A program made the position numbers and the translations under genes. Source: Thermodesulfobacteriota bacterium (GTDB lineage: Bacteria; Desulfobacterota_D; UBA1144; Nemesobacterales; UBA2774). From it: 64,000 nt of DNA. How positions within the stretch are numbered: position 1 is the stretch's first letter; every line of letters starts with the position of its first letter. Location of the stretch: positions 1,888,001 through 1,952,000 of the forward strand of contig OZ244197.1 of assembly GCA_965216785.1 (NCBI GenBank), written 5' to 3'. Below the pieces are notes generated by a model. That model saw only the letters and a program-made list of their open reading frames with translations, had not been told where the DNA came from and made no database searches. This document shows positions 270 through 19,722 of the stretch, in pieces.

Positions 270-1548
270 ATGATAAAGAAGATAGTTTTTAGTACAGCAT
301 TGGTTTTTCTTTCAATCGGGCCGTCTCTCTTGTTTGCCGAAACGTTGGATAAGCAGACGGCGCTTAAAAGGGCACTGGAGAATAACCCCTCGTATAAGGA
401 AAAGCTGTCCGAGATTAATGCCGCCGAGGGCGAGCGTGTTCAGGCCTCACTCCTGCCGAATCCGGGCGCGTTTTTCGAGCTCGAGAACTTTGCCGGGACT
501 AATGACAGGGAGGGCTTCGAGAGAACGGAGCTTACTGTCGGCCTTAAGCAAAAGATAGAGCTTGCCGGAAAGCGCCGCTACAGGACGGATATCGCCGAAG
601 CGGGCTTAAAGATAGCGCGTGAAAAAGCTCTGGCGGGGGCCCTGGGCCTTCTTTCTGAAACCGAATACGCCTTCATGCGCACGGCGGTGGCTAACGAGCG
701 CCTGGAGCTTGCCGAAAGACGCGTACAGCTCGCCGGGGAAACCATTGAGATCGTAGAAAGACGCGTTAACGCCGCCGCTTCGCCCGACGTCGAGCTTCTG
801 AAAGCCAAAATTGAAAAAGACGAAGCGGAAATAGAAGAGCACCACGTGGAAGAGGAATATAATATTGCCCGCAACGACCTTGCGCGCCTGATGGGTCTGA
901 AAGGCGGTGATGATCTCACTGTCGATGCGGATTTATCACTTCTTCCAGAGCTAATTGAGCTTGAGACCGTGACCCAGCTTCTGGAATCCACACCCGATGC
1001 GCGCGTTCGGCAGCTCGAAAAAACAAAGGCGCGCTCTTCACTCGATCTGGCAAAAGCAAGCGGCGTGCCCGACCCCACGGTGGGCCTGGGTGTGAGGCAG
1101 TTCTTCGATAACGACGATACGGCGCTCGTTGCCGAGTTTTCAATCCCCATCCCGGTGTTCGACAGAAACCAGGGAGGAGTAGGCAGCGCCCGAGCAGGTG
1201 TTAAACGCTCGGAAGAAAGGGCCCGCGTGACGGAGCTTGCTCTGTATCAGAGCGCAATACAGGCCTGGGAGTCATTCTGCGCCTCACTGGACGTAGCGCA
1301 GCGCTATCAAAACAGCATATTGCCCAATGCGAATAAGGCTTTCGGCGAGGCCGAGAGGGGATACAACCTCGGGGCGTTCAGCTATTTAGACCTCCTGGAC
1401 GCGCAAAGAACGCTAAATAAGGTGCAGTCAGAGTATTTAGACAACCTGCTCGAGCTTTACAAGGCCAAGGCGGAGATCGATTTTCTGATGGGCACCAATA
1501 AACCGCTCGTACAGGAAATTTCAGTAAACAATGAGGGGGGACAAAACA

Positions 1549-1556
<8 letters not shown>
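270..1556 (+). CDS. czcC: Outer-membrane factor (TolC family) of heavy-metal RND efflux, CzcC-like
   Basis: Signal peptide, 'LLPNP', 'SIPIPVFDRNQG' and 'LDLLDAQR' OMF motifs; operon with MFP and RND genes. Confidence 0.85.
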
Positions 1557-6007
<4,451 letters not shown>

Positions 6008-6225: not shown

Positions 6226-7374
6226 TTGAGCGGTCGTCTTAGAAAACTATTTCTCGGCATAATTACGGTGATATTTATACTGCTGGCTGCAGAGGGGGTA
6301 GCCAGGATATTCTTTAACCCGACGGATTATTTATGGCGGAGACTGGTTCCGGACGACATGTTAAGACACAGAGTGGAGCCCAATACCAGGGGCCACGATG
6401 CTTGGGGTTTTAGAAACAGATTGGTGCCTGCCCACGCTGACATTGTAGCGCTCGGCGATTCGCAGACATACGGTACAAGCTCACTGGCAAAGCACTCCTG
6501 GCCTTCTATCCTGGGTGAGTTAAAAGGTCAGGAAGTATATAATATGTCCCTGGGCGGCTACAGTCCTGCCGAATATCTATACTTGATGGAAGATAAGGCC
6601 CTTGGTTTAGGACCAAACCTCATAATTGCCGGATTCTACTTGGGAAACGATCTTACCGATACTTATACTGCAGTATACAGTGTTCCGTACTGGAAGGATT
6701 TAAGAAACCCGGACATTGCTTCCATGCACGCACAAGTATCGCCCAATCAGAATAAAGCGTCACTCAAAAAGAACCCTCGGGCATCATTTATGAAGCAAAT
6801 CTATTTAATTGCTGATTGGTTTGCAGGAAACAGCGTCCTATACAGGATAGTGAATACATCATCTCTCGGAGATTATATAAGACAGAAAAAAATGATAGGG
6901 GCAGGGTTAGAAGTAGTGATGTTCGAGGATAAAGAGAATGATATCTACACCGGATTCACGCCTGGAAGATGGTTAGATAATCTTGATTTAAAAAACCCTG
7001 AGGTACAGGAAGGACTCGGGCTTACGCTTAATTTCTTTAATCAGATGAATGAACTAGCAGAGAGAAACAATGTCCGGTTTTTGGTTGTCTTAATTCCTAC
7101 AAAGGAGAGCGTGTTCGCAGATTTTATAGAAGGGAATAGTCGTTTGGAAAGCTCAGAAAAAATTGACCGTTTAATTGAGGCCGAAAGACAGATAAACAAT
7201 ATTGCAAAATCGTATTTTAAAGAGCATGATATTTCTTATCTGGATGTATTGAATCCGCTTAAAGAGGCTGTACATAACGAACAGTTATACCCCAATAACT
7301 ATAGTAGCCATCCAAATAAAAACGGAAACAGGATAATGGCCGGGTCTATTGCGCAGTGGATGGATAGTAGATAG
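6226..7374 (+). CDS. SGNH/GDSL hydrolase-fold membrane-anchored protein (AlgX/AlgJ-like acyltransferase or esterase)
   Basis: N-terminal TM; 'LGDSQTYG', 'GND' and C-terminal 'SHPN' SGNH blocks. Confidence 0.75.
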   Translation: MSGRLRKLFLGIITVIFILLAAEGVARIFFNPTDYLWRRLVPDDMLRHRVEPNTRGHDAWGFRNRLVPAHADIVALGDSQTYGTSSLAKHSWPSILGELKGQEVYNMSLGGYSPAEYLYLMEDKALGLGPNLIIAGFYLGNDLTDTYTAVYSVPYWKDLRNPDIASMHAQVSPNQNKASLKKNPRASFMKQIYLIADWFAGNSVLYRIVNTSSLGDYIRQKKMIGAGLEVVMFEDKENDIYTGFTPGRWLDNLDLKNPEVQEGLGLTLNFFNQMNELAERNNVRFLVVLIPTKESVFADFIEGNSRLESSEKIDRLIEAERQINNIAKSYFKEHDISYLDVLNPLKEAVHNEQLYPNNYSSHPNKNGNRIMAGSIAQWMDSR

Positions 7375-7634
7375 TAAAACCTACATTTACCCGGCATTTC
7401 GAATATACATATTACTATTTACTCATAACCCCTCCTTGGCCCTAATTGTCAATAACACCCAAATGTTTTTTCCCCAATTAATAGTACTTTTGGAATCAAT
7501 ATCTGATCATAAAATCCATCTAAAGCACTGAATCCAAACGATTTTAACAATAAATATGGCAATTAATAGGGGGCAGTATGTAGTAGCATTACTTAGTAAT
7601 AATTAGTAAATATTTGCGATGATCAAAAAAGTAC

Positions 7635-7663
7635 TTGACTGAAATCGTAAACGTTTATATATT
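7635..7663 (+). promoter_or_regulatory. sigma70-like promoter for the collagen-like gene
   Basis: TTGACT-N17-TATATT in an AT-rich intergenic region. Confidence 0.5.
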
Positions 7664-7689
7664 TGAGTGAATTTAAACGGAGGATGGAG

Positions 7690-8763
7690 ATGATTAGATC
7701 AATTACTCGTGGAACTCTAGTTCTACTGCTGGCTATATCTGTAAACACATTTGCAGCTCAACCGGAAGTAACTGTAACAGAAGTATTCGTTGATTTTGAT
7801 ACCGAGACAATCACAATCATGGGTGATAACTTTGATCTTGGCCCTAATCCGCTCAATGTTACATTAGGTGCCTATGGCAGCCTAAATATAGTTTCTGCCG
7901 AACCAAATTTAATAATTGTCGACTTTCCAGCAGGCGGCCTGCTGGCTGGTGATTTTCTTTTAACGGTATCCAGCGGGCCAGGCCAAAGAAAAAATGACGA
8001 ACATGTCGTAACTGTTGGAGCAACCGGGCCTGAAGGACCGGAAGGCACGCCCGGAGAGCAAGGCCCCCAGGGTGCGCAAGGCCCACAAGGAGAGCCGGGT
8101 CCTGAAGGTCCTCAGGGAGAGCCTGGGCCAGAGGGCCCGCAAGGAGAGCCCGGACCACCAGGGCCTCAGGGTGATGCCGGACCCCCGGGACCGCAAGGTG
8201 ATCCTGGTATGAATGGTGTAGAAGGGCATCCGGGACAGCCTGGTCCACAAGGCGAACAAGGACCTCAGGGTGATACTGGACCACCAGGACCGCAGGGTGA
8301 TGCCGGACCTCCGGGACCACAAGGTGATCCGGGTCCCCAGGGTATTCAAGGACCCCCGGGACCACAAGGTGACACAGGACCCCAGGGGATTCAAGGGCTT
8401 CCCGGACCGCCAGGGCTGCAGGGCAATCCCGGACCCCCGGGCCCAAAGGGAGATCCAGGACTACAAGGAGAGACCGGACCAGAGGGCCCGCAAGGAATCC
8501 CCGGACCGTCGGGAACATGGAGTTTCTTTACAGGCAACTGTCCAACCGGTGGTAATGCATGTCAATTTACGGCATCCTGTGGAGCTGGCGAAACAGCGGT
8601 ATCCGGAGCTTGCGGGCTTTTAACCGGGAGTCAAAATAGCAGGGATATTATGTATACCGGTCCTAATCCGTTAGACACAACTCAATGGATTTGCAGATTT
8701 GACAGGGGTGGAGGTGCAGCTTTTACAGTAGACTACGGGGTATTTTGTGTTCCAAATTCTTAA
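7690..8763 (+). CDS. Secreted collagen-like protein (signal peptide, small beta domain, ~56 Gly-X-Y triplets, Cys-rich C-terminal domain)
   Basis: Uninterrupted GXY run; GGAGG RBS before ATG 7690; signal peptide [22 protein letters not shown]. Confidence 0.9.
8017..8520 (+). repeat. Collagen Gly-X-Y coding repeat (~56 triplets)
   Basis: Counted from the translation GAT-GPE...GPS-GTW. Confidence 0.9.
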
Positions 8764-8867
8764 CCATCGGCTCTGCTGGATAAAATATATACCAAAATAA
8801 TATGCAATATTGTAATCGTGTATGCTCATACGGTATATTTACGCAATAAATACGGAGCTCGGTGATA

Positions 8868-9125
8868 ATGAACGAAAAACCTACTATAGCTGAAGATATT
8901 GATATTAATGAGGTAGAGGACGGCTACGTTATTTACCAAAAGGAAAATGACAAGGTTCACTACCTGAACAAGACTGCCGTGCTTGTACTCGAATCCTGCA
9001 CCGGGAAAAACACTGCTGCTGATATAGAGGTGATTGTAAAGGAGGCGTATAAGCTTCCTGAAGCACCACAAAAGGAAGTCGCCGACTGCCTCGATACACT
9101 CTTTCAAGAAGGTCTGATTAAATAA
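8868..9125 (+). CDS. PqqD-family / RiPP recognition element (RRE) protein
   Basis: 85 aa; 'VHYLNKTAVLVLESCTG...IEVIVKEAY...EVADCLDTLFQEGLIK' fits the PqqD pattern (LN.t...w...dG...l...y...dv..fl..L...gli). Confidence 0.85.
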   Translation: MNEKPTIAEDIDINEVEDGYVIYQKENDKVHYLNKTAVLVLESCTGKNTAADIEVIVKEAYKLPEAPQKEVADCLDTLFQEGLIK

Positions 9126-9958
9126 ATTACGAACGTAAGTACACGCTGCTCGACACGGTAATCACAATACGTACTGAAAGCGAGGTACTGGCGCGCCGTC
9201 TTGATTTTATAGTACAAGAGGCGGAGCACACGCTTCACCCCCTAAAAGACGCTACATACGAATTCATACTCAGGGACGGCGCTTACGAGATAAGGAAGGA
9301 TGGAAGTCTTTGTTTCTCCTCTTCCGACCTCTCAGACGCAGTCTTTAATCTGCAGTGGCTTATTCATAAGGAAGTATTGAAGAACGTTACAGAGTCTATA
9401 CGTATTCATGCGGGATGCGGGGAGCTCGACGGAAGGAGGTTTCTCGTCGCGGGCGACAAGGGGGCGGGCAAGACGACGCTCATGGTACGTCTATTGTTCG
9501 AGGGATTCCGCGTCATCGGTGATGAGCTGGTACTGGTCAGGGACAGGAGAGCAATCCCATTTCCCAGAAGGTTTCACATCAAACAAGAAAGTATGAACCT
9601 GCTGCCCGAGCTTAACAGCCTGTTTGCTTCCCTGCCATACAATATGACAAGCTACGGCCATAAGATGTTTTCATTCACTCCTCAGGATGCCGGATATGAG
9701 TGGAAGATCGACGAGGGTGACATTCATTCTATTTTTTATCTGGAACCCAACCACGGAGGGCAGACGCGCATAGAGGAATGCCCGAAATATATGATGGTCA
9801 ATAGGGTTATGCCTATGAGTTTTCTGTCTGAGACCGAGGATCATATGAAGATAAACCAGCTCTGTAATATGATTGATCGAGCAAACTGTTATATTTTGCA
9901 TGTTGGAGACCTTGAAGGGGCGGTTTCCACTATACAGGAAAAAATGTCTGTGCTATAA
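9122..9958 (+). CDS. HPr-kinase-related P-loop kinase (start uncertain: frame is open from ATA 9122; ORF track uses TTG 9377)
   Basis: 'IHAGC...LVAGDKGAGKTTL...GF.VIGDELV' matches the HprK-type His / Walker A / acidic-pair signature. Confidence 0.8.
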   Translation: MNYERKYTLLDTVITIRTESEVLARRLDFIVQEAEHTLHPLKDATYEFILRDGAYEIRKDGSLCFSSSDLSDAVFNLQWLIHKEVLKNVTESIRIHAGCGELDGRRFLVAGDKGAGKTTLMVRLLFEGFRVIGDELVLVRDRRAIPFPRRFHIKQESMNLLPELNSLFASLPYNMTSYGHKMFSFTPQDAGYEWKIDEGDIHSIFYLEPNHGGQTRIEECPKYMMVNRVMPMSFLSETEDHMKINQLCNMIDRANCYILHVGDLEGAVSTIQEKMSVL

Positions 9959-9959
9959 T
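9951..9959 (+). promoter_or_regulatory. Extended -10 promoter (TGcTATAAT) upstream of the precursor-Hint genes
   Basis: Perfect TGnTATAAT about 45 nt before ATG 10004, which has an AAGGAGG RBS. Confidence 0.45.
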
Positions 9960-10003
9960 GCGTAATTAGTATTATTAGACCTGCTATAAAGGAGGAACGT
10001 TAC

Positions 10004-10591
10004 ATGAGCGAGAAAAAATTTATAGATGAAGTTAATCCCGAAAGGCGCGAGTTTTTAGAGAAAGTGACCAAGGGAGCTTTTATCATCCCTACTGTAATAT
10101 CGGTGATGATGCTGAATCAGAAGCTTAACCTAACGACGGCCAACGCACAGAGCAACCTACCACCGTGCCTGTCTTGTGAGACTTTAATCTCCACCCCGGA
10201 CGGGAACGTCACAATAGTTGATTTAAAACCTGGGATGAAGGTCTATACCCTCGATACTAAAGGAAACAAGGTTGTAGAAGAGCTTGAGCTCGTATCAAAA
10301 GTAACGGTCCCTGAGACTCATACGCTCTTCAGTCTATGTTTTGGCGGCGGTACAGAGCTATTAGTTTCCGGTGCTCATCCGACAGCGGACGGCAGATATA
10401 TATATGATCTCAAACCGGGCGATATGATCGACGGCGCTGAGCTCTTATCCATCGAAAAGGTTAGCTACACAGCCGGATATACATATGACCTGCTACCGGC
10501 GGGAGATACTGGATGTTACTGGGCTGACGGGGTTCTTTTAGGCAGCACGCTAGCCGCAGAGTCAGAGAGCAGAATACGGAAGGCCTCTTAA
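10004..10591 (+). CDS. Putative precursor peptide 1: 48-aa leader + QSNLPP + C-terminal Hint domain (Cys55 at 10166)
   Basis: Hint blocks 'CLSCETLISTPDG', 'DLKPG', 'VSGAHP' and 'TYDL...YWADGVL'; leader shared with three paralogues. Confidence 0.85.
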   Translation: MSEKKFIDEVNPERREFLEKVTKGAFIIPTVISVMMLNQKLNLTTANAQSNLPPCLSCETLISTPDGNVTIVDLKPGMKVYTLDTKGNKVVEELELVSKVTVPETHTLFSLCFGGGTELLVSGAHPTADGRYIYDLKPGDMIDGAELLSIEKVSYTAGYTYDLLPAGDTGCYWADGVLLGSTLAAESESRIRKAS

Positions 10592-10642
10592 CAAGGCTCT
10601 AAGAGCTATAAAAACAGCACTTAAAAGAAGGAGGGTTCTTAC

Positions 10643-11227
10643 ATGAGCGAAAAAAAATTTATAGATGAAGTTAACCCCGAGAGACGCGAATTTCTGGAAA
10701 AAGTAACTAAAGGCGCATTTATTATCCCAACTGTCGTTTCTGTAATGATGTTGAATCAAAAACTTAACCTTACGACAGCCAACGCGGCGAGCAACATGAT
10801 TTGTCTTTCTTGCGAGACTTTAATATCTACGCCCGAAGGTGAAATTCGGGTAGTTGATTTGAAACCGGGAATGCTTGTCTTTACCCTGGACATGAACGGA
10901 AACAAGGTCATAGAGCGGTTAGAGCTAGTATCGAAAGTAACGGTCCCTGAAACTCATGTACTCTGCCATCTGGTTTTTAGTGATGGGAGAGAGCTCTTTG
11001 TGTCGGGTGGGCATCCGACAGCGGACGGTAGAGATGTTAACGAGCTTGCGCCGGGTGACATGCTCGACGGAGCGGAGGTGGTCTCTGTAGTGAATATTCG
11101 CTACATAGCCGGTCATACCTATGACTTGCTCCCTGCCGGAGAGACGGGAAATTACTGGGCAAACGGTGTTCTGTTGGGCAGCACGCTCGCACCTGAGTCC
11201 GTGAGCAGAATACGGAAGGCCTCTTAA
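10643..11227 (+). CDS. Putative precursor peptide 2: 48-aa leader + ASNMI + C-terminal Hint domain (Cys54 at 10802)
   Basis: Tandem paralogue of 10004-10591; 'CLSCETLISTPEG', 'VSGGHP' and 'TYDL...YWANGVL'. Confidence 0.85.
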   Translation: MSEKKFIDEVNPERREFLEKVTKGAFIIPTVVSVMMLNQKLNLTTANAASNMICLSCETLISTPEGEIRVVDLKPGMLVFTLDMNGNKVIERLELVSKVTVPETHVLCHLVFSDGRELFVSGGHPTADGRDVNELAPGDMLDGAEVVSVVNIRYIAGHTYDLLPAGETGNYWANGVLLGSTLAPESVSRIRKAS

Positions 11228-11337
11228 CTGTAAGGCAAGTTAAGCTAAGGTTTCAGCCTGTTACATTAAGTGCATAATTCATCTTTATGCTATGTAGAGC
11301 TTTCATCCTGTATTAAAATTTTTCCAATGGGTAAAAA

Positions 11338-12444
11338 TTGAGCGATATCCTGTTTTCCGCCTCTATGATCGTCCGAAACGAGGAAAAATTCCTTGAGGGA
11401 TGCCTTGAGTCCATTAGAAACGTCGTGGACGAAATAGTAATAGTCGATACAGGCTCAGTAGACGGCACAAAGGAGATTGCCTTAGAGTACGGTGCGAGGG
11501 TATTTGATTTCCCGTGGAACGGAGATTTCGCGGCAGCGCGTAACGAAGCCCTTCGTCACTGCAGGGGCGAATGGATACTGTATATAGACGCTGACGAACG
11601 GGTGAGGCCCGCCGAAAAGTCCTACGTCACTGAAATTCTCTCGGACGTATCTAAAGTCGCATATACACTTTTGTTTTACCCGATAGTGGGCTATACGGGA
11701 TACCGTGAGCACCGCATCTTCCGAAGCGATCCCCGCATACGTTTTCAGGGGGTTATACACGAAGGTATGCTTTCCGCGATCCAGGACGTTGCGCGCGAGG
11801 ACGGGCTCGAAATCGGTTATTGCGATCTTGTAATAGACCACCTGGGATACGAGGGTGACCTTACGCATAAGCACGAAAGGAACCTGCCCCTACTGAGAGA
11901 TCAGATTGAAAACGACCCAGAAAGAATTTACCTCAGATGGCAGCTCGGCGCGGCGCTTAAGGGACTTGGGGACTTGGATGGTGCGGAGAGGGCGTGGATG
12001 GACGCGATCGACATTATACGCGGAAAGGAAACGGTAGGCCCGGAAGACAGCCATCCGTACTACGACATGATCCGCCTCCTGAATGAGAGTGAGCGTGACT
12101 ACACAGAGCTTCTGGCCGAGTCTTCAAAGCTGTTTCCGGACAACTATTTAATAACCTGGACCAAGGCCATGACGCTGATGCACGATCAAAGATTTGAGGA
12201 TGCTGCGCGGGTGTTTGAATCTCTCGCCGCGATAGATCCGGCAAGCCTTGACGGGGAGATACTTGCCTATAACGCGCGCATATTCGATGAGCTTTCCTAT
12301 GAACCCCTCGCCACGTGTTATTTTAAGCTCGGCAAGCTAGAAGAGAGCGAGAAATATTACGCGCTCGCGCTCAGGTGTGATCCTGAAAATCAGCAATACC
12401 GTACGAAGCTCAAGTTCGTTTCAGCGTTGGTAAATAAATCGTGA
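11338..12444 (+). CDS. GT2 glycosyltransferase with C-terminal TPRs
   Basis: 'SMIVRNEE', 'VDTGSVDGT', 'DFAAARN', 'IDADE' and 'HLGY', plus helical TPR repeats. Confidence 0.88.
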   Translation: MSDILFSASMIVRNEEKFLEGCLESIRNVVDEIVIVDTGSVDGTKEIALEYGARVFDFPWNGDFAAARNEALRHCRGEWILYIDADERVRPAEKSYVTEILSDVSKVAYTLLFYPIVGYTGYREHRIFRSDPRIRFQGVIHEGMLSAIQDVAREDGLEIGYCDLVIDHLGYEGDLTHKHERNLPLLRDQIENDPERIYLRWQLGAALKGLGDLDGAERAWMDAIDIIRGKETVGPEDSHPYYDMIRLLNESERDYTELLAESSKLFPDNYLITWTKAMTLMHDQRFEDAARVFESLAAIDPASLDGEILAYNARIFDELSYEPLATCYFKLGKLEESEKYYALALRCDPENQQYRTKLKFVSALVNKS

Positions 12445-13182
12445 TTGATTATGAAAGATGAACCGCTTGTATCATGCCTTTGCGTTACAAGAGACAGAGT
12501 GCCTATGCTCAAAAGAGCGATAAGGTCGTTCAGGGACCAGGATTACGGGCACAAGGAGCTGGTGATCGTGTATGAGAGCGACGACGGTGAAACAGAGGAA
12601 TTTTTAAGAGAAGTTTCAGACGGTAACATTCTCAAAATAAAAGTTCCGGCAGAGCCCAGACTCACGCTCGGAGAGCTCAGGAACCTGGCTCTTAAAGAGA
12701 GTACGGGAGAGTATTTTTGCCAGTGGGACGACGACGATTTCTATCATAATCAGAGGGTTTCATTCCAGATGGAAGTACTGCGCGAGTCTGCTATGCCCGC
12801 CTGCGTAATGGTCCACTGGCTCATATACGATTTGGCGCATGCTCAGGCCTACGTGTCTAATATGAGGCCTTGGGAAGGCAGTCTGCTCTGTAAAAAATCA
12901 CTCATAGATGAAGAGCTTAAGTACGAGGATAAAGGCAGGGGGGAGGACACGGCTTTAATAAGTGAGCTGTTTACGAGAAACCTCGCATTTCCCGTAATTA
13001 TGCCAAAGCTATATATATACGTATACCATGGGGGTAATGTGTGGACAGATGAGCATTGGGGCAGAATATTCAGCGCGAGCACGAAGCTCTCTGAGGAGTC
13101 GAGCAGGGTGATAAGGGACATATTGGACGGGAAATACACAGGTGATGAAGCCTCCGGGCTGCTGGATGATATAACTGAATGA
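12445..13182 (+). CDS. GT2 (GT-A) glycosyltransferase
   Basis: 'PLVSCLCVT', 'LGELRN', 'QWDDDD' and 'GEDT'. Confidence 0.82.
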   Translation: MIMKDEPLVSCLCVTRDRVPMLKRAIRSFRDQDYGHKELVIVYESDDGETEEFLREVSDGNILKIKVPAEPRLTLGELRNLALKESTGEYFCQWDDDDFYHNQRVSFQMEVLRESAMPACVMVHWLIYDLAHAQAYVSNMRPWEGSLLCKKSLIDEELKYEDKGRGEDTALISELFTRNLAFPVIMPKLYIYVYHGGNVWTDEHWGRIFSASTKLSEESSRVIRDILDGKYTGDEASGLLDDITE

Positions 13183-13209
13183 AATCACCCGCATAACGAA
13201 CTAAGAATT

Positions 13210-14958
13210 ATGGCGATACCCAAAATATTGTATCAGACCTATAAGACCAAAGAGATCCCGGAGCGGCTCGAAGAGTATCGCCGTAAGCTGCTAGAGCTTC
13301 ACCCCGGCTGGGAATACCGGTTTTACGGAGACGACGAGTGCAGGGATTTAGTGAAGAGGTTTTTACCCTCGTTTCTCCCGGTATATGATAGCTGCTCGAT
13401 ACCGGCTCAGAAAGCCGATATATTCCGCATCATAGCGGTCTGGGCGCTAGGCGGGTTTTACCTGGATATCGACGTCGAATGTATACGGAGCGTCGATCAG
13501 CTCTGTGAATTCCACTTAGTATTTGCCGAGGAGCTCACACTTACTCAAGAGCAGGCGAAGGAACTGGGTCACAGGGACCGCCTAAGGGTGGGGAACTTTA
13601 TGTTCGGCAGTGAGCAGGGCCATCCTTTTCTTCTGCGTATTCTAAGGAAAATGGCGGAGGAAAGCAGGCGTGAGATTCGCTCTGAGAACGATGTGCTGGA
13701 ATCCACAGGGCCGGGCCTTGTCACTACCGTATACCATGATGCGTGTGAGGAGCTAAGGGACATCGTACTGCTGCGGAACATCGACCGTGAATGCCCTGTC
13801 ACTGGCGGTGTAGCCTGCCACTTCGGAAATTATGCCATACACCACCATGAAGGCTCCTGGAGGTGGGGGCATGTTAAATCTCCCAAGCTGAAAAACTTTG
13901 CCCGAAGTCAAAAGATCACACCGACTGAGATAAACAAAATCTGCAGCGAGATCGATTCTGAATTAGAAAGGACAAGTAGACCCGAGGATATTTATATATT
14001 AAGAGCATACAAGGAGAAACCATACGATGGCTTAACCTACGTGTTTGACCGAACTTCGGGGCTCGGCATCATTTCTGACAATACGAGCAGTCTTGAAGAT
14101 AAAAAAGTCCTCGTGAGCGGGATGCCCATTATGTTTACCGACAAAGTGTCTAAGCAAAATACCAATGTTATATACACGACATTTGAAAGTACGTCGCTTC
14201 CCCCAGATTGGGTGAGTGCGATAAACGGCTTATTTAACTACTGTATAGTTCCGCACCAGCACGTAAAGAAAGTGTTTGAGGATTCGGGGGTGAGCATACC
14301 AGTCAGCGTCATACACCAGGGATTTACTAGGTATAGGAGGAAAGATAGGAAAGCTCTTGACGATAAGACATACAAGATCGGATTTCTCGGGGTCCCTGTA
14401 GAGAGGAAGAATCTATTCAAGCTATATCAGGCTTGCGCACATCTTCTGGCGGATATACCTGAACTGAGGCTTAGTGTTCATATCCCGGATTATTACGGTG
14501 GGATGAATGTGGAATATCTGGGGATGGTCAAAATGTCACCCTTCGTAGATTGGACCGAAGGTCATCTGGGCGAGAATGAGATCGCAGAGTGGTACAGCGG
14601 GCTTTCGTGTTATGTATTTCCGTCGAGCGGGGAAGGGTGGTCCTTTACTCCGCGGGAAAGTCTTTATCTCGGAGTACCGACTATTTTGTCGGATATCCCT
14701 GTTCACAGGGAGCTTATTGAATCCGGTTACTGCAAAGCGATACCCGTAAGTGGTAGGGAAGAGGCGGTATTTAACTCAAAGGTGTCCGGACAATGGGACA
14801 GGGTTGCGGTTGAGGACATAGAAAACACGATACGAGACCTGTATCTGAATTACGGGAGTTATTATATTAAGGCTATTCAGGGAAGCCGCTGGATAGAGAA
14901 TAAATGGACCAATGAAAGCACTCAGCAGTTACTGCTCGATTATTTGACAAAGGTGTAA
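13210..14958 (+). CDS. Bifunctional glycosyltransferase: N-terminal GT32/OCH1-like DxD domain + C-terminal GT4-like (GT-B) domain
   Basis: 'IPKILYQT', 'KADIFR', 'GGFYLDIDV' and 'STGPG'; then 'YVFPSSGEGWSFTPRESLYLGVPTILSDIPVHRE'. Confidence 0.82.
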   Translation: MAIPKILYQTYKTKEIPERLEEYRRKLLELHPGWEYRFYGDDECRDLVKRFLPSFLPVYDSCSIPAQKADIFRIIAVWALGGFYLDIDVECIRSVDQLCEFHLVFAEELTLTQEQAKELGHRDRLRVGNFMFGSEQGHPFLLRILRKMAEESRREIRSENDVLESTGPGLVTTVYHDACEELRDIVLLRNIDRECPVTGGVACHFGNYAIHHHEGSWRWGHVKSPKLKNFARSQKITPTEINKICSEIDSELERTSRPEDIYILRAYKEKPYDGLTYVFDRTSGLGIISDNTSSLEDKKVLVSGMPIMFTDKVSKQNTNVIYTTFESTSLPPDWVSAINGLFNYCIVPHQHVKKVFEDSGVSIPVSVIHQGFTRYRRKDRKALDDKTYKIGFLGVPVERKNLFKLYQACAHLLADIPELRLSVHIPDYYGGMNVEYLGMVKMSPFVDWTEGHLGENEIAEWYSGLSCYVFPSSGEGWSFTPRESLYLGVPTILSDIPVHRELIESGYCKAIPVSGREEAVFNSKVSGQWDRVAVEDIENTIRDLYLNYGSYYIKAIQGSRWIENKWTNESTQQLLLDYLTKV

Positions 14959-15077
14959 GAATTTTAGATTATTGACTAATATTGATAACCGTCTTGTTTT
15001 ATCTGAAGCAATGTGTTAACTTAGAATCACTCTTTAAATGTTTACGCATTTGAAAATTGATAAAGGAGACTGGGAAT

Positions 15078-15248
15078 ATGAGCGACAAGAAATTTCCGGA
15101 GGACGTGAACTCCGAAAGACGCGAGTTTATAGAGAAAGTGACCAAGGGCGCTTTTATTATCCCCACTGTAATATCGGTGATGATGTTGAATCAGAAGCTG
15201 CACCTTACGACAGCAAACGCGAATAGTAACATCCCACCGCCACCTTAA
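15078..15248 (+). CDS. Putative precursor peptide 3 (56 aa): shared leader + NSNIPPPP, no Hint domain
   Basis: AAGGAG RBS before ATG 15078; MSDKKFPEDVNSERREFIEKVTKGAFIIPTVISVMMLNQKLHLTTANANSNIPPPP. Confidence 0.85.
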   Translation: MSDKKFPEDVNSERREFIEKVTKGAFIIPTVISVMMLNQKLHLTTANANSNIPPPP

Positions 15249-15322
15249 ATTGTGGTTTCGGTGATCTGAGCAGCTGGGTTCTGATATAACTTTTGAATAG
15301 TTTTAAAGGAGAACGGATATAA

Positions 15323-15502
15323 ATGAGTGACAAGAAATTTCCGGAGGACGTGAACTCCGAAAGGCGCGAGTTTTTAGAGAAAGTGACCAAGGGCGCTTTT
15401 ATCATCCCCACGGTAATATCAGTAATGATGCTGAATCAGAAGCTAAATCTGACGACAGCCAACGCACAGAGTAATATGACTATCATTAATGAACAGCCGT
15501 AA
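15323..15502 (+). CDS. Putative precursor peptide 4 (59 aa, absent from the ORF track): shared leader + QSNMTIINEQP, no Hint domain
   Basis: Manual translation MSDKKFPEDVNSERREFLEKVTKGAFIIPTVISVMMLNQKLNLTTANAQSNMTIINEQP*; AAGGAG RBS. Confidence 0.85.
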   Translation: MSDKKFPEDVNSERREFLEKVTKGAFIIPTVISVMMLNQKLNLTTANAQSNMTIINEQP

Positions 15503-15821
15503 GCTTTAGCATGGAGCAGTATAAATTTATGGCTGTCGTTGATATCTATTAAAAAGTAAGTCCGGCTAGAACGGGGTTGGCGAATGGAGCTCGCCCTTCG
15601 TTTCCGGTAAATGTTTTATATCATTTCAATTTTAAGCTTATTTTGCTGAATTTTGCCAGAATAAGCTTATTCCATCCAAGCTCAAATTAATCTCAACTTA
15701 TCAGATACAATAGAGGTTTTAATAATAAGCCGTAATGAGAATTCTTCGGTCCCTTATATAAATCCTCATTATGTTTATAGTATTATGCTGAGGGTTGGCG
15801 CTCAGAGCGGGATAAAGGAAA

Positions 15822-17099
15822 ATGGTTCAGTACAAAAATCCGGAATGTAAACGCGGCGGTTATAACGGAGGATATCTACCCGACCGCACGCAGGAGCTTT
15901 TGCTCAGGGCATGTCTTCTTAAGGGAGACGAGGCCATTGATGCGTATCGTGAATGGAAGAGCTTAGTCGATCTTGATAACGTCGATCCCGGCTCATACCG
16001 TCTTTTCCCTCTCCTTTACATAAACTTGAAATCACAGGGCTTGGAAGAGCCGATGATGAATATCTTTAAGTGGGTCTACACAAAAACCCGTGAGAATAAC
16101 GAAATACTGCTGCGTAATCTCGGCCCCCTGCTGAAAGAATTCAACAACTGCGGGATCGAGGTCATATTGCTTAAAGGCGCCGGGCTGATTCTCACTTGCT
16201 TCCGGGATTATGGACTTCGCCCCATGGTGGATGCGGACCTTCTCGTTCCTACCGCGAAAACCGGGGACGCGATCGAGCTCATAACAGGACTTGGATGGGA
16301 TTCGTCCATAACACCGCTTAAGGGTTTTAAGGACATGAAGCTGCTGTCCCGGCTCGGATGGACCCCGGGGGACAGAAAGCTCGAGGACTTCACTGAAGAG
16401 TATTTTTGCGTGAGGCACGGGCAGGACTTTACAAACCCTGAGAAGTTCACGATAGACCTTCACTGGCACATGCTCCACGGGTATAACGAGCCTGACGCCG
16501 ACGCGGATTTCTGGCAAGGTGCTGGTACTGTAAACGTGGAAGGCGCGCAAGCGAGGGTACTCGATCCGGCTGATCTGCTTCTTCACGTCTGTTCACACGG
16601 AGTAAGATGGGACCCTCTTCCCGCTATTCGCTGGGTGGCGGATGCGGCATGGATAGTCGACGGCTCAGAAGGTGGTATTGATTGGGAGAGGTTTGTAGAT
16701 GTAACCGCTCGCCACGGTAAGGTGCTTTATGCAAGGGAAGCTATACGCTATTTGAACCGTTATTTGGTACACAAAGTTCCGCAGTCCGTACTAGATCGGC
16801 TAAACACCCTGCCGGTCACGAAAGCTCAATATTTGGAGTATCATATTAGGACGCGTCCGCCTGGAATACTCGACGGTTTTTATGAGCTGGGGTTTCTTTA
16901 CGATAATTATTCGAAGGTCAGTCAGGGTCAAAACCTTTATCGCAGACTCACCGGATACCCCCGGTTCCTTCAGCATGTGTTCGGTATGGAAAAGCTGCGG
17001 CATTTGGTATTGTACGCCGCGTTCGAGTTCGTACGCCGGGGCGCGCATCTGCCGGGCTTGGTGGTCAGGGGACTAAAGAACAAGCTCGTAAAGGGGTGA
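15822..17099 (+). CDS. Nucleotidyltransferase family protein (NTP_transf_5-like)
   Basis: 'LLKGA...RPMVDADLLV...IDLHW...LLLHVCSH...WVAD' motif order. Confidence 0.82.
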   Translation: MVQYKNPECKRGGYNGGYLPDRTQELLLRACLLKGDEAIDAYREWKSLVDLDNVDPGSYRLFPLLYINLKSQGLEEPMMNIFKWVYTKTRENNEILLRNLGPLLKEFNNCGIEVILLKGAGLILTCFRDYGLRPMVDADLLVPTAKTGDAIELITGLGWDSSITPLKGFKDMKLLSRLGWTPGDRKLEDFTEEYFCVRHGQDFTNPEKFTIDLHWHMLHGYNEPDADADFWQGAGTVNVEGAQARVLDPADLLLHVCSHGVRWDPLPAIRWVADAAWIVDGSEGGIDWERFVDVTARHGKVLYAREAIRYLNRYLVHKVPQSVLDRLNTLPVTKAQYLEYHIRTRPPGILDGFYELGFLYDNYSKVSQGQNLYRRLTGYPRFLQHVFGMEKLRHLVLYAAFEFVRRGAHLPGLVVRGLKNKLVKG

Positions 17100-17151
17100 G
17101 GTGGGAGGGGCGGATTGTTTTATTCCGCAAACGTGTGTAGTTCCGATGCAA

Positions 17152-18159
17152 TTATCTTGTCAGGCGCCAGTAAAGCCTTCTAAACTTTCTTAGTATCTTA
17201 CTTTCGATTACCGTCAATGTTACACCTTTTAAAGTTCTAAGCGGGGATCCCTTAATAACGTCTTTCTCTAGATCACTGATTTTATAACGCTTCTGCTCAC
17301 CTGCAGCAGGGCTTGTATTTTCGAGTATGGTTTTCATTCTTTCTTGGAAGAGTTTGTCATCTGCATCCGTACCGCTCGTGTCCGATACCAATATGTGACC
17401 CCTGGGGGTTCTTAGGTACTTTCTCGCGCCCCCTCCGGGGGCGCAAAGGTGCCAGGCATTGGCCTCTGTAGTGACCATGAGTGTGTAATTTTTTTCAACG
17501 AGCCTCGCGCATAAATCGCTCTCTTCCCGGTGCGCCTGGTCCGAGTACCCGTCAACGGCCCATCCCCCTGCTTCCTCTACCGCTTTGCGGCGGTAGCATA
17601 TCGCCCCACCGAGGAGACTATCGACTTCTATGACTTCCGGATCATTATAATAGTGGTGGCCCTGCAGTTTCCAGGTCAGCTCATCAAGAGTAGATGTGAA
17701 TGACCTTTCCGCCAGATTCAAATCCAAGCTCGCCTTTTTCGCTTGAGGTACTGGAAAGCACCCGCCCACTGCAGCAAGCGGCCTGTCGGCGAAAAAATGA
17801 AACGGCTTTAGTATGTTTTCAATGAAACTTGCGTCCGGAAGCATATCGTCATCTATCCTCAGTATGAACTCGATCGATTGCGGCACGGCCTCCATTGCCT
17901 GCTGGTGTCTCTTCCAGCCATCTTTAGTACGAATGATTATGATCTCGTGACCTATGTTTCTGGCAACCGTAAGAAGGTCGGTAATCGCATCGTCTCTCTC
18001 GACAGGTGAATCGCTCTGGTCGTTGATTACAATCATAAAATTCGTAAAAGTTTGATTGAGCAGAGAGTTCAGCAGCACTGCAAGGTAGGAAGGACGGTTC
18101 TTCGTTGGTATGGCTACAGCTATTTTTTCGTCCTTTTTGATTTGCCTTAGTCTATCCAT
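17152..18159 (-). CDS. GT2 glycosyltransferase
   Basis: 'IPTKNRP', 'RIDDD', 'AGGW' and 'EESDLCAR'. Confidence 0.8.
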   Translation of the reverse strand: MDRLRQIKKDEKIAVAIPTKNRPSYLAVLLNSLLNQTFTNFMIVINDQSDSPVERDDAITDLLTVARNIGHEIIIIRTKDGWKRHQQAMEAVPQSIEFILRIDDDMLPDASFIENILKPFHFFADRPLAAVGGCFPVPQAKKASLDLNLAERSFTSTLDELTWKLQGHHYYNDPEVIEVDSLLGGAICYRRKAVEEAGGWAVDGYSDQAHREESDLCARLVEKNYTLMVTTEANAWHLCAPGGGARKYLRTPRGHILVSDTSGTDADDKLFQERMKTILENTSPAAGEQKRYKISDLEKDVIKGSPLRTLKGVTLTVIESKILRKFRRLYWRLTR

Positions 18160-18288
18160 CTTCGTTCGTTTTAAAGCTTAGTGTTTAAATCACAATCGCT
18201 AAGCCAGGAGCTTCCTCTTTCAAAATTTCAGCTACCACCTTAGCTTAATCTTAACTATTAATAAACCAAGAGGCCTAACGTAATGATT

Positions 18289-19722
18289 TTACTTATTCAA
18301 AGCCACAAACCTCTTTACTTTCCCTGTTTCAGGATTGCGGGGCAGGGAGTCTATGATTTCCACTATAACTTCCGGGTCTTTGAGGCCGTCTTTTTCAAGC
18401 TGCTGTTTGATAGATGAAATAATTTCTTCCATATTCGGCTCGCCATTGCAAACGAGCTTTACAATACCGCCGCGCTCGGTCTGAACGACTTGATATTCCT
18501 CTACTTCTTTTACTAGGTCTAGGATATCGCTGAAAGCCATCGGATGTACCCTGACGTTACCGTACTGAAACCAGTTGGTGGCTCTGCCGAGGATATTTGT
18601 AACTCTACTATATGCCGGGTATTCACCAAAGTCCCGGCCGATCTCGACAACATCGTCTACTTCATACCGTATCATGGGGCATGATTTATTAACTAAACTG
18701 GTTGCCAGAACCCTGGCCGCGTCTCTTGCATCCTCGACCGGGTTGTCTTTCTCATCCACCAGCTCGAGTATTACAGCGTCCTCGCATATCACCATGCCGG
18801 GGCTATCGGCCAGCTCGACCGCGATTTGACCGATCTCTACGCATCCCCAGCTGTTGCATGTTTTCACCCCCCACGCTTTTTTAATGCGGGCGCGCATAAT
18901 GTCGTCAAGGGGGCCGGAATTGGTGCTTACCCAGCGGGGTGATATATCCAGCTCTCCCTTCAATTGGGCTGAAGCAAGCTCAGCGGTTGAGGATGCGAAC
19001 GCCATAATGTAAGTGGGCTGGAAACTGTTTAACTTTTCGCATTGCTCCGTCATGGGGTCAGTGGAACCCAGGCTTAAGAGCTCGAATTCCGCAAGCGGCT
19101 TGCTTGGGAAAAGAATTCTGCTTCCGTGAAGTAAGGTGGGGGCCTCTACGGTGGCAAGTTTCATAGGCCCCTTGTAACCTGCTTTTTGCTCCAGATCTAT
19201 AAAGTTACGGTACGTAAGACAGATTGATTCACTAACAAAATCCGTGTCCCAAAGAAAGAGACCTCTCTTGCCCGTTGAGCCTCCGGTTGCTATAAAGAGG
19301 TACTTGTCATTGTAGAAGGGGTTTTCAATCTCCCCTTTTCTTAACTTGTCCAGGTGATTCTCGGCAATGTCGTAAGATAATTCCGGGACTGCGAGAAAAT
19401 CTTCCCAACGGTCCATGTGCTCTGTTTTGCTGGTCGGCGGGATGCTATGAAGGTCCTCAAGGTTAAACACAGTAGTGTCTACAGATTTAAGGACATCACC
19501 GTAAAACACAGTACGCTCCTTGGCTAAAGTCAATATGTCCCTTAACGCCATTGTCTGATGATTAACGAGCTCGTCTTTACTCCAGGATAGATGCTTTAGG
19601 TGCTCCGGCATTCTACTCTGGGCGTCTGTCCAAACAGACTGAATTATTTCCTCGTATGTGATATAGACACCTCCGCCAATAAGTCTAATTCTCACATTAC
19701 CGTGTATGCGCAGTAATAGCAA
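18289..19722 (-). CDS. Phenylacetate-CoA ligase / F390-synthetase-like adenylate-forming protein (start uncertain)
   Basis: 'ATGGSTG' P-loop, 'WGCVE', 'PMIRYEVDD', 'GRA' and 'ETGKVKR'. Confidence 0.75.
   Translation of the reverse strand: MLLLRIHGNVRIRLIGGGVYITYEEIIQSVWTDAQSRMPEHLKHLSWSKDELVNHQTMALRDILTLAKERTVFYGDVLKSVDTTVFNLEDLHSIPPTSKTEHMDRWEDFLAVPELSYDIAENHLDKLRKGEIENPFYNDKYLFIATGGSTGKRGLFLWDTDFVSESICLTYRNFIDLEQKAGYKGPMKLATVEAPTLLHGSRILFPSKPLAEFELLSLGSTDPMTEQCEKLNSFQPTYIMAFASSTAELASAQLKGELDISPRWVSTNSGPLDDIMRARIKKAWGVKTCNSWGCVEIGQIAVELADSPGMVICEDAVILELVDEKDNPVEDARDAARVLATSLVNKSCPMIRYEVDDVVEIGRDFGEYPAYSRVTNILGRATNWFQYGNVRVHPMAFSDILDLVKEVEEYQVVQTERGGIVKLVCNGEPNMEEIISSIKQQLEKDGLKDPEVIVEIIDSLPRNPETGKVKRFVALNK

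What the first reader, a model, noticed from the sequence alone, without database searches (positions are those of the whole stretch)
10166..11227. Hint domains look cleavage-only (hedgehog/BIL-like): Cys1, SxxH and block F Asp present, terminal His-Asn absent
Seen: both domains start CLSCETLISTP(D/E)G, have VSG(A/G)HP (block B, T>S) and TYDL (block F), and end YWA(D/N)GVLLGSTL plus a 12-aa tail finishing in RIRKAS. Known: Cys1 with the block B His drives the N-S acyl shift to a thioester. Without the terminal Asn canonical splicing cannot finish, and hedgehog Hints use this thioester to attach cholesterol. Inference: cleavage at ...LPP|C and ...MI|C gives a peptide thioester that could hydrolyse, cyclise or ligate to a lipid, glycan or protein. 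The Hint would then act as a built-in C-terminal maturase.
Basis: partly seen in the sequence, partly recalled or inferred. Interest (0 to 1): 0.85.

Follow-up and report, generated by a model that had tools for sequence, protein, structure and literature searches.

The report
Peptide precursors with self-cleaving Hint tails
Two neighbouring genes of an uncultured bacterium fuse a short peptide precursor to an intein/Hedgehog-type domain that likely cuts itself off and would hand the likely phosphorylated, sugar-decorated peptide to another molecule, a pairing I found in none of my paper searches.

Summary
Observation confirmed. The ORFs at 10004-10591 and 10643-11227 are a 48-residue leader, a 5-6-residue core, a 129-residue HINT domain (predicted fold, Z 16-17 to inteins, BILs, Hedgehog) and a 12-residue tail. 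Cys1, SxxH and block F Asp are essentially invariant; His-Asn and the block F His are absent, so canonical splicing is excluded. (1) The missing Asn is replaced by an invariant Ser (Hedgehog C143 position) followed by Thr (intein +1 position): 268 of 269 and 265 of 269 relatives. An acyl relay is therefore plausible, not just cleavage. (2) The genes are precursors in a conserved RRE + HprK kinase + three glycosyltransferases + NTP-transferase cluster resembling the 2026 LPP family (A-Q-S phospho-site), with Hint-less paralogues that end where the Hint begins; one relative has a stop at the Cys1 codon. The leader looks like a Tat signal. The Hint belongs to a widespread subfamily that ends exported proteins. 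Most likely: self-cleavage with transfer of the modified peptide to an unknown acceptor. No chemistry is shown. This scan noted the same architecture before in another genome (e1-7873733).

The parts
8862..9125 (+). Discrete RRE / PqqD-family protein, 87 aa (the Met conserved in relatives is at 8868)
   Evidence: Pfam PqqD E 5.4e-7, over cut-off; 72-82% identical copies in 11 other loci aligned
9122..9958 (+). HprK-related kinase, open frame of 278 codons, Walker A GDKGAGKT; start codon unclear (ATA overlapping the RRE stop)
   Evidence: TIGR04352 E 3.5e-19, 69 bits, below cut-off 200
10004..10591 (+). Precursor-Hint fusion A, 195 aa
10004..10147 (+). Leader of A (aa 1-48): RREFL twin-arginine motif (10043-10057), FxxPxV RRE-type motif (10079-10096), hydrophobic stretch, A-N-A end
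   Evidence: near-invariant in 120 homologues; passes a recalled TatFind-like rule
10148..10165 (+). Core of A, QSNLPP; Ser50 (10151-10153) is the inferred phosphorylation site
   Evidence: Ser in 117 of 119 fused and 117 of 119 short cores; A-Q-S3 is the phospho-site of LppA
10166..10552 (+). Hint domain of A, 129 aa: Cys1 10166-10168, Ser B:7 10367-10369, His B:10 10376-10378, Asp F:4 10487-10489, Gly at F:13 10511-10513, Ser at G:7 10544-10546, Thr at +1 10547-10549
10553..10591 (+). 12-aa tail of A and stop; too short for a sterol-recognition region, pLDDT under 50 at its end
10643..11227 (+). Precursor-Hint fusion B, 194 aa: leader 10643-10786, core ASNMI 10787-10801, Hint 10802-11188, tail 11189-11224
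   Evidence: dS about 1.1, dN 0.19 against A over the Hint
11338..12444 (+). GT2 glycosyltransferase with TPR repeats (SunS-like)
   Evidence: Glycos_transf_2 E 1.6e-24; TIGR04195 E 3.1e-19, below cut-off
12445..13182 (+). GT2 glycosyltransferase
   Evidence: Glycos_transf_2 E 4.3e-11
13210..14958 (+). Two-domain glycosyltransferase (DXD Gly_transf_sug + Glycos_transf_1)
   Evidence: E 4.6e-12 and 2.1e-10
15078..15248 (+). Hint-less precursor, 56 aa, same leader, core NSNIPPPP
   Evidence: 85% identical to leader of A
15323..15502 (+). Hint-less precursor, 59 aa, same leader, core QSNMTIINEQP
   Evidence: 88% identical to leader of A
15822..17099 (+). NTP_transf_5 nucleotidyltransferase (same kind of enzyme as PsmN/LppN by annotation)
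   Evidence: PF14907 E 2.4e-34; at the end of the cluster in relatives

Best explanation
The two genes encode peptide precursors with a C-terminal HINT-fold domain that likely cleaves itself off at Cys1 and would transfer the short, likely phosphorylated and glycosylated core peptide to an acceptor other than water. Steps: (1) the RRE binds FxxPxV in the leader (inferred from LPP/lasso precedent); (2) the HprK kinase phosphorylates the Ser of A-Q-S, and the NTP transferase and three glycosyltransferases add sugar (inferred); (3) the folded precursor leaves by Tat and the housekeeping signal peptidase cuts after A-N-A (inferred); (4) Cys1, helped by Ser B:7, His B:10 and Asp F:4, forms a thioester with the last core residue (residues shown, chemistry inferred); (5) the acyl group passes, directly or through an ester on the invariant Ser127/Thr128, to a cell-envelope nucleophile, so that fused genes give an anchored or conjugated peptide and the short genes give the free one (inferred, acceptor unknown). 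My odds: N-S shift and release at Cys1 about 0.8; capture by a non-water acceptor about 0.5; Ser/Thr relay about 0.35; Tat route about 0.55.
For: Fold. Catalytic residues: C1 120/120, S68 119/120, H71 120/120, D108 120/120, S127 120/120, T128 119/120 in the family; C1 147, S68 149, H71 149, D108 149, S127 148, T128 146 of 149 distant representatives. Register: model residue 181 is the last residue aligned to the end of many inteins (RecA 440, PI-PfuI 454, gp41-1 125, Ssp DnaE 159) and 183 aligns to Hedgehog 402, placing Ser181 on Hedgehog Cys400 = C143; C143 forms a branched thioester (PMC12054796, passages). Purifying selection, dN/dS 0.15-0.30 in 9 of 9 pairs tested. Cut site: fused cores (median 7 aa) match short cores (median 9 aa) in start and composition; 19 of 76 distinct fused cores of 6 aa or more are prefix matches of short ones against 0.9 on average and 5 at most in 1000 shuffles; in L040 the Cys1 codon is a stop with a decaying Hint behind it. 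Plain hydrolysis would give what a stop codon gives, yet 15 of 33 family genomes hold the domain. The subfamily is always C-terminal, 74 of 149 end one residue after S-T-L, and 108 of 140 Met-starting proteins have an N-terminal hydrophobic segment, which is Hedgehog-like use. Cluster: 13 of 17 fetched regions; LPP precedent; PsmK/PsmN phospho-hexose precedent. Export: 116/120 fused and 118/119 short leaders pass a recalled Tat rule against 27 of 2721 genome ORFs; TatC and one LepB present, no SipW-type peptidase found.
Against: No experiment shows cleavage, phosphorylation, export or ligation. No acceptor-binding domain is seen: the tail is 12 aa and low-confidence, and Hedgehog's Asp46 aligns by eye with Lys/Arg45. 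The -1 residue is Pro 36, Ile 24, Val 20 of 119, residues that slow or block thioester cleavage in laboratory inteins (recalled). The Hint is dispensable: 5 of 19 RRE-bearing genomes gave no Hint match, and 5 of 13 cluster loci lack the fused gene. Ser127/Thr128 could be structural. The leader has no Pfam or NCBIfam Tat-signal hit at E<=0.1 and the Tat rule is recalled. LPP likeness rests on three residues plus gene content; F-to-S spacing is 24 here against 18 in LppA.
Confidence: 0.5

Rival explanations
1. Timed release: the Hint cleaves at Cys1 but the (thio)ester is simply hydrolysed, so the domain is a folded carrier that protects the core, helps Tat export or delays release, and the product equals that of the short genes.
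For: Fused and short cores come from one repertoire; a stop at Cys1 exists in L040; the cluster occurs without any Hint gene in 5 of 13 loci; no acceptor-binding region; B-type BILs cleave without splicing (PMC4031507 passages).
Against: Short genes in the same cluster already make this product; invariance of Ser127/Thr128 across 269 relatives is not needed for Cys1 hydrolysis.
Confidence: 0.25
2. Head-to-tail cyclisation: after leader removal the new N-terminus attacks the thioester and gives a 4-13-residue cyclic peptide.
For: Core length 4-13 aa and C-terminal Pro in 36 of 119; intein thioesters are used for cyclisation in the laboratory (established knowledge).
Against: Position 1 after A-N-A is Gln in 82 of 119, prone to pyroglutamate (recalled); the same Hint subfamily ends large exported proteins where this makes little sense; short paralogues could not cyclise.
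Confidence: 0.1
3. The Hint is a stable, non-reacting folded domain in this context (blocked by Pro/Ile at -1) and the product is a small phospho-glycoprotein displayed whole.
For: Unfavourable -1 residues (effect recalled); LPP precursors of up to 200 aa exist.
Against: All step-1 catalytic residues are invariant in family and subfamily; Ile at -1 is the norm in the wider subfamily (111 of 147), which points to adaptation rather than inactivation.
Confidence: 0.09
4. Non-canonical splicing: the core is moved to Thr128 (+1), the Ser127-Thr128 bond is cut by an Asn-independent route, and the core is joined to the tail.
For: Thr/Ser at +1 in 120 of 120; Asp F:4 kept; reviews report atypical C-terminal cleavage by B-type BILs.
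Against: His G:6, Asn G:7 and His F:13 are all absent; 74 of 149 distant relatives have only one residue after S-T-L.
Confidence: 0.06

Closest known systems
Linear polyphosphorylated peptides (LPP) of Bacillota (PMC13381572; read: abstract, sections 6, 7, 8, 12, two supplement searches)
   Same: Discrete RRE + HprK-like kinase + NTP transferase amid glycosyltransferases, no macrolactam cyclase; several precursors with conserved leader and variable Pro/Gly-rich core; aromatic-xx-P-x-V leader motif; A-Q-S at the start of the core, whose Ser is phosphorylated in LppA.
   Different: No SipW-type peptidase found in the genome and no ABC exporter among the cluster's ORFs; leader carries RRxFL and a hydrophobic stretch, six residues longer between motif and Ser; Hint fusion (0 hits for Hint or intein in the paper's text and six supplements); Gram-negative Dadabacteria-type host.
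B-type bacterial intein-like domains / Pfam Hint_2 (PF13403)
   Same: Cys1, block B His, no intein-like block G, expected N-terminal cleavage uncoupled from splicing; best Pfam family for 120 of 120 members.
   Different: Scores 26.1 and 28.3 bits against a cut-off of 28.4, over profile positions 1-38 of 147 only; own C-terminal signature YDLLPxGxTGxYWANGVLLGSTL; fused to peptide precursors.
Hedgehog autoprocessing (Hog) domain
   Same: C-terminal HINT domain on a secreted N-terminal product; no Asn; nucleophilic side chain at the C143 position (Ser here); Z 16.4 to 1AT0.
   Different: Ser not Cys at 143; Lys/Arg at the Asp46 position (by eye); keeps intein-type Asp F:4; no sterol-recognition region; Pfam Hint in only 15 of 120 at E<=0.1.
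Class 1 mini-inteins and A-type BIL / PT-HINT
   Same: Fold (Z 16-17), Cys1, block B, Asp F:4, Thr at +1.
   Different: No His-Asn, no His F:13, no conserved host protein around it; PT-HINT and Intein_splicing in 0 of 120 at E<=0.1.
Pseudomycoidin / paeninodin-type lasso clusters (PsmK, PsmN; PMC6993621, passages)
   Same: HprK kinase phosphorylates a Ser; the NTP transferase is needed for hexose on the phosphate.
   Different: No lasso cyclase among the cluster's ORFs, no B2 peptidase over cut-off in the genome; the Ser is near the N-terminus of the core.

Membership tests
HINT superfamily | HINT fold | tested here: met
   AlphaFold2 + Foldseek + VIA, Z 17.2, rmsd 2.0 over 132; predicted, not solved
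HINT superfamily | Cys1, block B T/S-x-x-H, block F Asp | tested here: met
   120/120, 119/120 and 120/120, 120/120
HINT superfamily | N-S acyl shift and cleavage at Cys1 | not testable with these tools
   needs biochemistry
Class 1 intein | Terminal His-Asn (G:6, G:7) and His F:13 | tested here: not met
   Gly126-Ser127, Gly116
Class 1 intein | Cys/Ser/Thr at +1 | tested here: met
   Thr128 119, Ser 1 of 120
Class 1 intein | Insertion in a conserved host protein with a C-extein | tested here: not met
   only a short tail follows; short paralogues stop at the junction
A-type BIL / PT-HINT | C-terminal His-Asn; PT-HINT profile | tested here: not met
B-type BIL (Hint_2) | No intein-like block G | tested here: met
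B-type BIL (Hint_2) | PF13403 score over 28.4 bits across the domain | tested here: inconclusive
   26.1 and 28.3 bits, positions 1-38 of 147; some distant subfamily members pass, many do not
Hedgehog Hog domain | Cys143 | tested here: not met
   Ser at that place
Hedgehog Hog domain | Asp46 general base | tested here: not met
   Lys 99, Arg 19 of 120 at the position aligned by eye
Hedgehog Hog domain | Sterol-recognition region | tested here: not met
   12-aa tail
LPP RiPP family | Discrete RRE, HprK-like kinase, NTP transferase | tested here: met
LPP RiPP family | YxxPxV leader motif and xxS core start | tested here: met
   [FY]xxPx[VI] in 119/120; Ser in 117/119; the rest of the LPP consensus differs, compared by eye only
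LPP RiPP family | SipW-type signal peptidase in the cluster | tested here: not met
   TIGR02228 0 matches in G000, 92% complete, control rings in 8 of 14
LPP RiPP family | MsbA-like exporter in the cluster | tested here: not met
   none among the ORFs of window 6226-19722 scanned; not searched genome-wide
LPP RiPP family | Polyphosphorylation of the core Ser | not testable with these tools
   needs expression and MS
Tat substrate | RRxFL + uncharged stretch + AxA | tested here: inconclusive
   passes a recalled TatFind-like rule but no Tat-signal HMM hit; no SignalP available

The most novel reading that the evidence does not exclude
A RiPP pathway with a bacterial Hedgehog-like last step: an RRE-guided kinase and glycosyltransferases build a phospho-glycan on a tiny peptide, Tat exports it, and a built-in Hint domain uses a Cys1-to-Ser127/Thr128 ester relay to ligate it to the cell envelope. 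The same undescribed Hint subfamily (521 clusters at 50% identity with E<=1e-30) would be a general self-contained C-terminal anchoring device for exported proteins of Patescibacteria, Chloroflexota and archaea.
Probability: 0.25. Interest if true: 0.9.

Novelty: new variant of a known kind. Interest (0 to 1): 0.72.

Why it matters
I found no paper joining a Hint domain to a RiPP precursor (library limited to open papers). If the domain works as its residues suggest, the precursor carries its own C-terminal activating enzyme, new chemistry for RiPPs. The system is small (195 aa, cleavage testable in a day) and offers natural controls (Hint-less paralogues). It gives a handle on two open questions: what C-terminal bacterial Hint domains without Asn do with their thioester, and what LPP-type phospho-glycopeptides are for. 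A Ser at the Hedgehog C143 position would extend the 2025 branched-intermediate mechanism to prokaryotes, and a Hint that tolerates Pro or Ile at -1 would be useful for protein ligation.

Tried and rejected
RRE-leader complex prediction: no verdict (median 0.34, one control 0.60), not used either way. RNA runs: no RNA holder listed. PDB sequence search with the single domain gave one hit under E 0.001; the profile gave one at 4e-9. Plasmid search gave one weak hit (E 0.2), not followed. ESM Atlas: Hint part gave only generic HINT clusters at 0.89-0.93; the short precursor gave unnamed small-protein clusters, and its nearest named clusters (0.86-0.87, several Tat-exported proteins) are leads only. 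Lasso reading rejected: no cyclase in the cluster, PF13471 only under cut-off elsewhere. Degenerate or pseudogene reading rejected: intact frames, dN/dS 0.15-0.30. Leader as a general signal for many passengers rejected: of 120 listed longer leader-bearing proteins, 113 were the known Hint fusions and 7 truncated or frameshifted ones. A RiPP context for the wider Hint subfamily was not found: 0 of 66 non-family loci had a tblastn hit to the cluster genes within the DNA held, at most 5 kb a side (detects close homologues only). Dassa 2004 on BIL chemistry was not held, so details of B-type BIL C-termini were not checked. No paper was found for the -1 residue effect; it is recalled. Earlier-finding look-ups by sequence and by relatives were blank.

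Full report
Observation. The finding covers the Hint parts of two tandem ORFs, 10004-10591 (195 aa) and 10643-11227 (194 aa), 77% identical, each behind a strong ribosome-binding site. Pfam gives Hint_2 only, E 1.3e-5 and 2.7e-6, just under the cut-off and over block A only; NCBIfam gives intein_Nterm under cut-off. AlphaFold2 with a 120-row alignment models the Hint part at pLDDT 90-97 per block and leaves leader and tail uncertain. Foldseek and VIA match it to BILs, inteins and Hedgehog at tied Z of 16-17. The fold is HINT; no subfamily stands out.

Active-site register. Among the best 120 of 352 homologues, Cys1 is in 120, Ser B:7 in 119, His B:10 in 120, Asp F:4 in 120. These are the residues a review names for the N-S shift (PMC4031507, passages and section 4). 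The three residues of Asn cyclisation are gone: Gly at F:13 (120), Gly at G:6 (117), Ser at G:7 (120). The register rests on the ends of structural alignments (model 181 against the last residue of RecA, PI-PfuI, gp41-1 and Ssp DnaE inteins; model 183 against Hedgehog 402) and on the sequence alignment to the Cat intein; I had no residue-by-residue structural alignment. So Ser127 sits on the intein Asn and on Hedgehog Cys143, and Thr128 (119, Ser 1) on the intein +1 nucleophile. Hedgehog Cys143 is required for processing and forms a branched thioester (PMC12054796, abstract and passages). By eye against the sequence printed there, Hedgehog Asp46 falls on Lys/Arg45, and there is no sterol-recognition region. 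Whether it is catalytic is inference.

Context. The genes lie in the order RRE (8862), HprK-related kinase (9122), two fusions, GT2-TPR (11338), GT2 (12445), two-domain glycosyltransferase (13210), two short ORFs (15078, 15323), NTP_transf_5 (15822). The short ORFs carry the same 48-residue leader and end 8 and 11 residues later. A search of 41 related genomes found the precursor in 14, all in the window's own family. Of 17 regions fetched, 13 show the cluster in this order (four are cut by contig ends or have broken genes), 8 of them with a Hint fusion after the kinase and 5 without; 3 show a lone fusion and 1 a broken fusion beside a short gene. Across 33 family genomes the RRE is in 19 and the Hint in 15; 14 of the 15 have the RRE, the other breaks off at a contig end; 5 of the 19 gave no Hint match (draft genomes, related to one another). 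Source names of homologues are Candidatus Dadabacteria and Thermodesulfobacteriota.

The cut site. Cores between A-N-A and Cys1 are 4-13 aa (119 of 120 parsed), begin x-S-N and are then hypervariable; cores of 119 short precursors (one truncated fusion, P0312, dropped from 120) are 4-18 aa with the same start and composition; 19 of 76 distinct fused cores of six or more residues are prefix matches of short ones, against a shuffle mean of 0.9 and maximum of 5 in 1000 (this shows one repertoire, which shared ancestry explains). In L040 the Cys1 codon is a stop and a decaying Hint follows in frame; of 56 short genes in the loci examined this was the only one with its own Hint remnant, the other hit being a neighbouring intact fusion. 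Two further short precursors end in I-C-L. Release at Cys1 would thus give the same kind of peptide that the short genes encode, but with an activated C-terminus. The Hint is under purifying selection (dN/dS 0.15-0.30, 9 pairs; A against B 0.18 at dS about 1.1).

What kind of RiPP. The closest described system is the LPP family (PMC13381572; abstract, sections 6, 7, 8, 12): RRE, HprK kinase, NTP transferase, SipW-type peptidase and MsbA-like exporter amid glycosyltransferases; leader YxxPxV; Ser3 of the core is polyphosphorylated; final product and function unknown. The main text gives the LppA core start as AQSNWK, but supplement file 2 has no AQSN and 57 AQS, the 15 I saw all F-E-T-A-Q-S-W, so only A-Q-S is shared. 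Here [FY]xxPx[VI] is in 119 of 120 leaders, AQSN in 72 of 120, and the Ser in 117 of 119. In pseudomycoidin the same enzyme pair gives phosphate and then hexose on a Ser (PMC6993621, passages). Differences: no SipW-type peptidase found in this 92% complete genome, no exporter among the cluster's ORFs, no lasso B2 over cut-off. Instead the leader has RRxFL, a 14-residue hydrophobic stretch and A-N-A; it passes a recalled TatFind-like rule in 116 of 120 fused and 118 of 119 short precursors against 27 of 2721 crude genome ORFs; TatC and one LepB are present. No Tat-signal HMM fired, so export by Tat is a likely, untested step. It works like an LPP cluster; it fails two membership features.

Where the Hint came from. 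A profile of 12 Hint domains finds 521 representatives at E<=1e-30 among 1.84 billion. In the 149 listed besides the family's own representative, the domain is C-terminal, keeps the same residues (Ser127 148, Thr128 146), ends one residue after S-T-L in 74, is preceded by Cys at -3 in 114 and Ile at -1 in 111 of 147, and 108 of 140 Met-starting proteins have an N-terminal hydrophobic segment by my threshold. I scanned 53 of the 149: passengers include peptidoglycan-binding, PKD, PEGA, Gmad2, cupredoxin and subtilase domains. Of 287 genome matches the best 80 were kept: 14 carry the leader, 66 come from Patescibacteria, Chloroflexota, Acidimicrobiia, Micrarchaeota, ammonia-oxidising archaea and others and show none of the cluster genes nearby. 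In a FastTree of 180 domains (31 of the 120 family rows, P0121, 148 others) the precursor-fused ones form one clade with modest support 0.74, and A and B group together at 0.91. The simplest history is one capture of a surface-protein Hint by the precursor, then duplication and repeated loss.

Mechanism. Shown: fold (predicted), residues, gene order, conservation, matching short products. Inferred: RRE binding, phosphorylation and glycosylation of Ser50, Tat export, thioester at Cys1, relay to Ser127/Thr128, capture by an envelope acceptor. I favour capture over hydrolysis because hydrolysis yields only what the neighbouring short genes already yield, and because the subfamily elsewhere caps exported proteins with nothing behind it. 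Against: no acceptor-binding part, unfavourable -1 residues (Pro 36, Ile 24, Val 20 of 119; effect recalled), and clusters without the Hint gene.

Novelty. Searches for Hint domain + RiPP + precursor peptide gave 0 papers; a looser one gave one review without the words 'Hint domain' (listing only); searches on Hint domains in Patescibacteria/archaea, on Dadabacteria RiPPs and on secreted prokaryotic Hint proteins listed nothing on this subfamily by title or abstract start; the LPP paper and its six supplements have no 'Hint' or 'intein'. The library lacks most subscription papers, including the primary BIL papers; reviews were read as passages, RRE-Finder likewise. NCBI already labels some homologues 'Hint domain-containing protein'. 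This scan noted the same architecture in another genome (e1-7873733), seen after my reading was formed; it is an unchecked AI note, not independent support. Verdict: real feature, new variant of known kinds (LPP-like RiPP plus B-type-BIL-like Hint), interest 0.72.

Noticed in passing
window 9120-9125: The kinase frame has no ATG/GTG/TTG at its conserved start; in 11 of 11 loci it opens with ATA overlapping the RRE's AAA-TAA end. Either an ATA start with translational coupling or a -1 frameshift giving an RRE-kinase fusion.
   Followed up: partly
L040:13855-14289 (-): Precursor whose Cys1 codon is a stop, followed in frame by a decaying Hint; a neighbouring short gene ends I-I-C-M.
   Followed up: yes
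P0132: The same Hint subfamily fused to what looks by eye like a double-glycine bacteriocin-type leader and a Ser/Thr/Asn-rich core: possibly an independent peptide-Hint fusion.
   Followed up: no
P0122-P0269: C-P-I|C (CxxC across the scissile bond) in most distant relatives, a possible redox switch; 0 of 119 precursor-fused cores have Cys at -3, while both window copies have C1-L-S-C4 (11 of 120 homologues).
   Followed up: partly
L027, L032, L033: Lone precursor-Hint fusions away from the cluster in genomes that also hold the cluster.
   Followed up: no
L031, L034, L035, L042: A second copy of the GT2-TPR gene sits inside the array of short precursors; arrays hold up to seven precursor genes.
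   Followed up: no
L037, L038, L039: Short precursors with collagen-like Gly-Pro-Thr repeat cores of 18-30 aa.
   Followed up: no
window 7663-8763: Secreted-looking collagen-like protein with a Cys-rich C-terminus just upstream of the RRE; no tblastn hit in 16 related loci, so not a fixed part of the cluster.
   Followed up: partly
window 17152-19722 (-): A further GT2 and a phenylacetate-CoA-ligase-like gene on the opposite strand after the cluster; the GT2 also lies near the cluster in L044.
   Followed up: no
PMC13381572: Main text gives the LppA core start as AQSNWK; supplement file 2 has no AQSN and shows AQSW in the 15 rows seen.
   Followed up: partly
window 270-6007 and 29802-62916: CzcCBA-type and other RND efflux genes, Mrr-type endonuclease, sigma54 regulators and housekeeping genes; nothing linked to the finding.
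   Followed up: no
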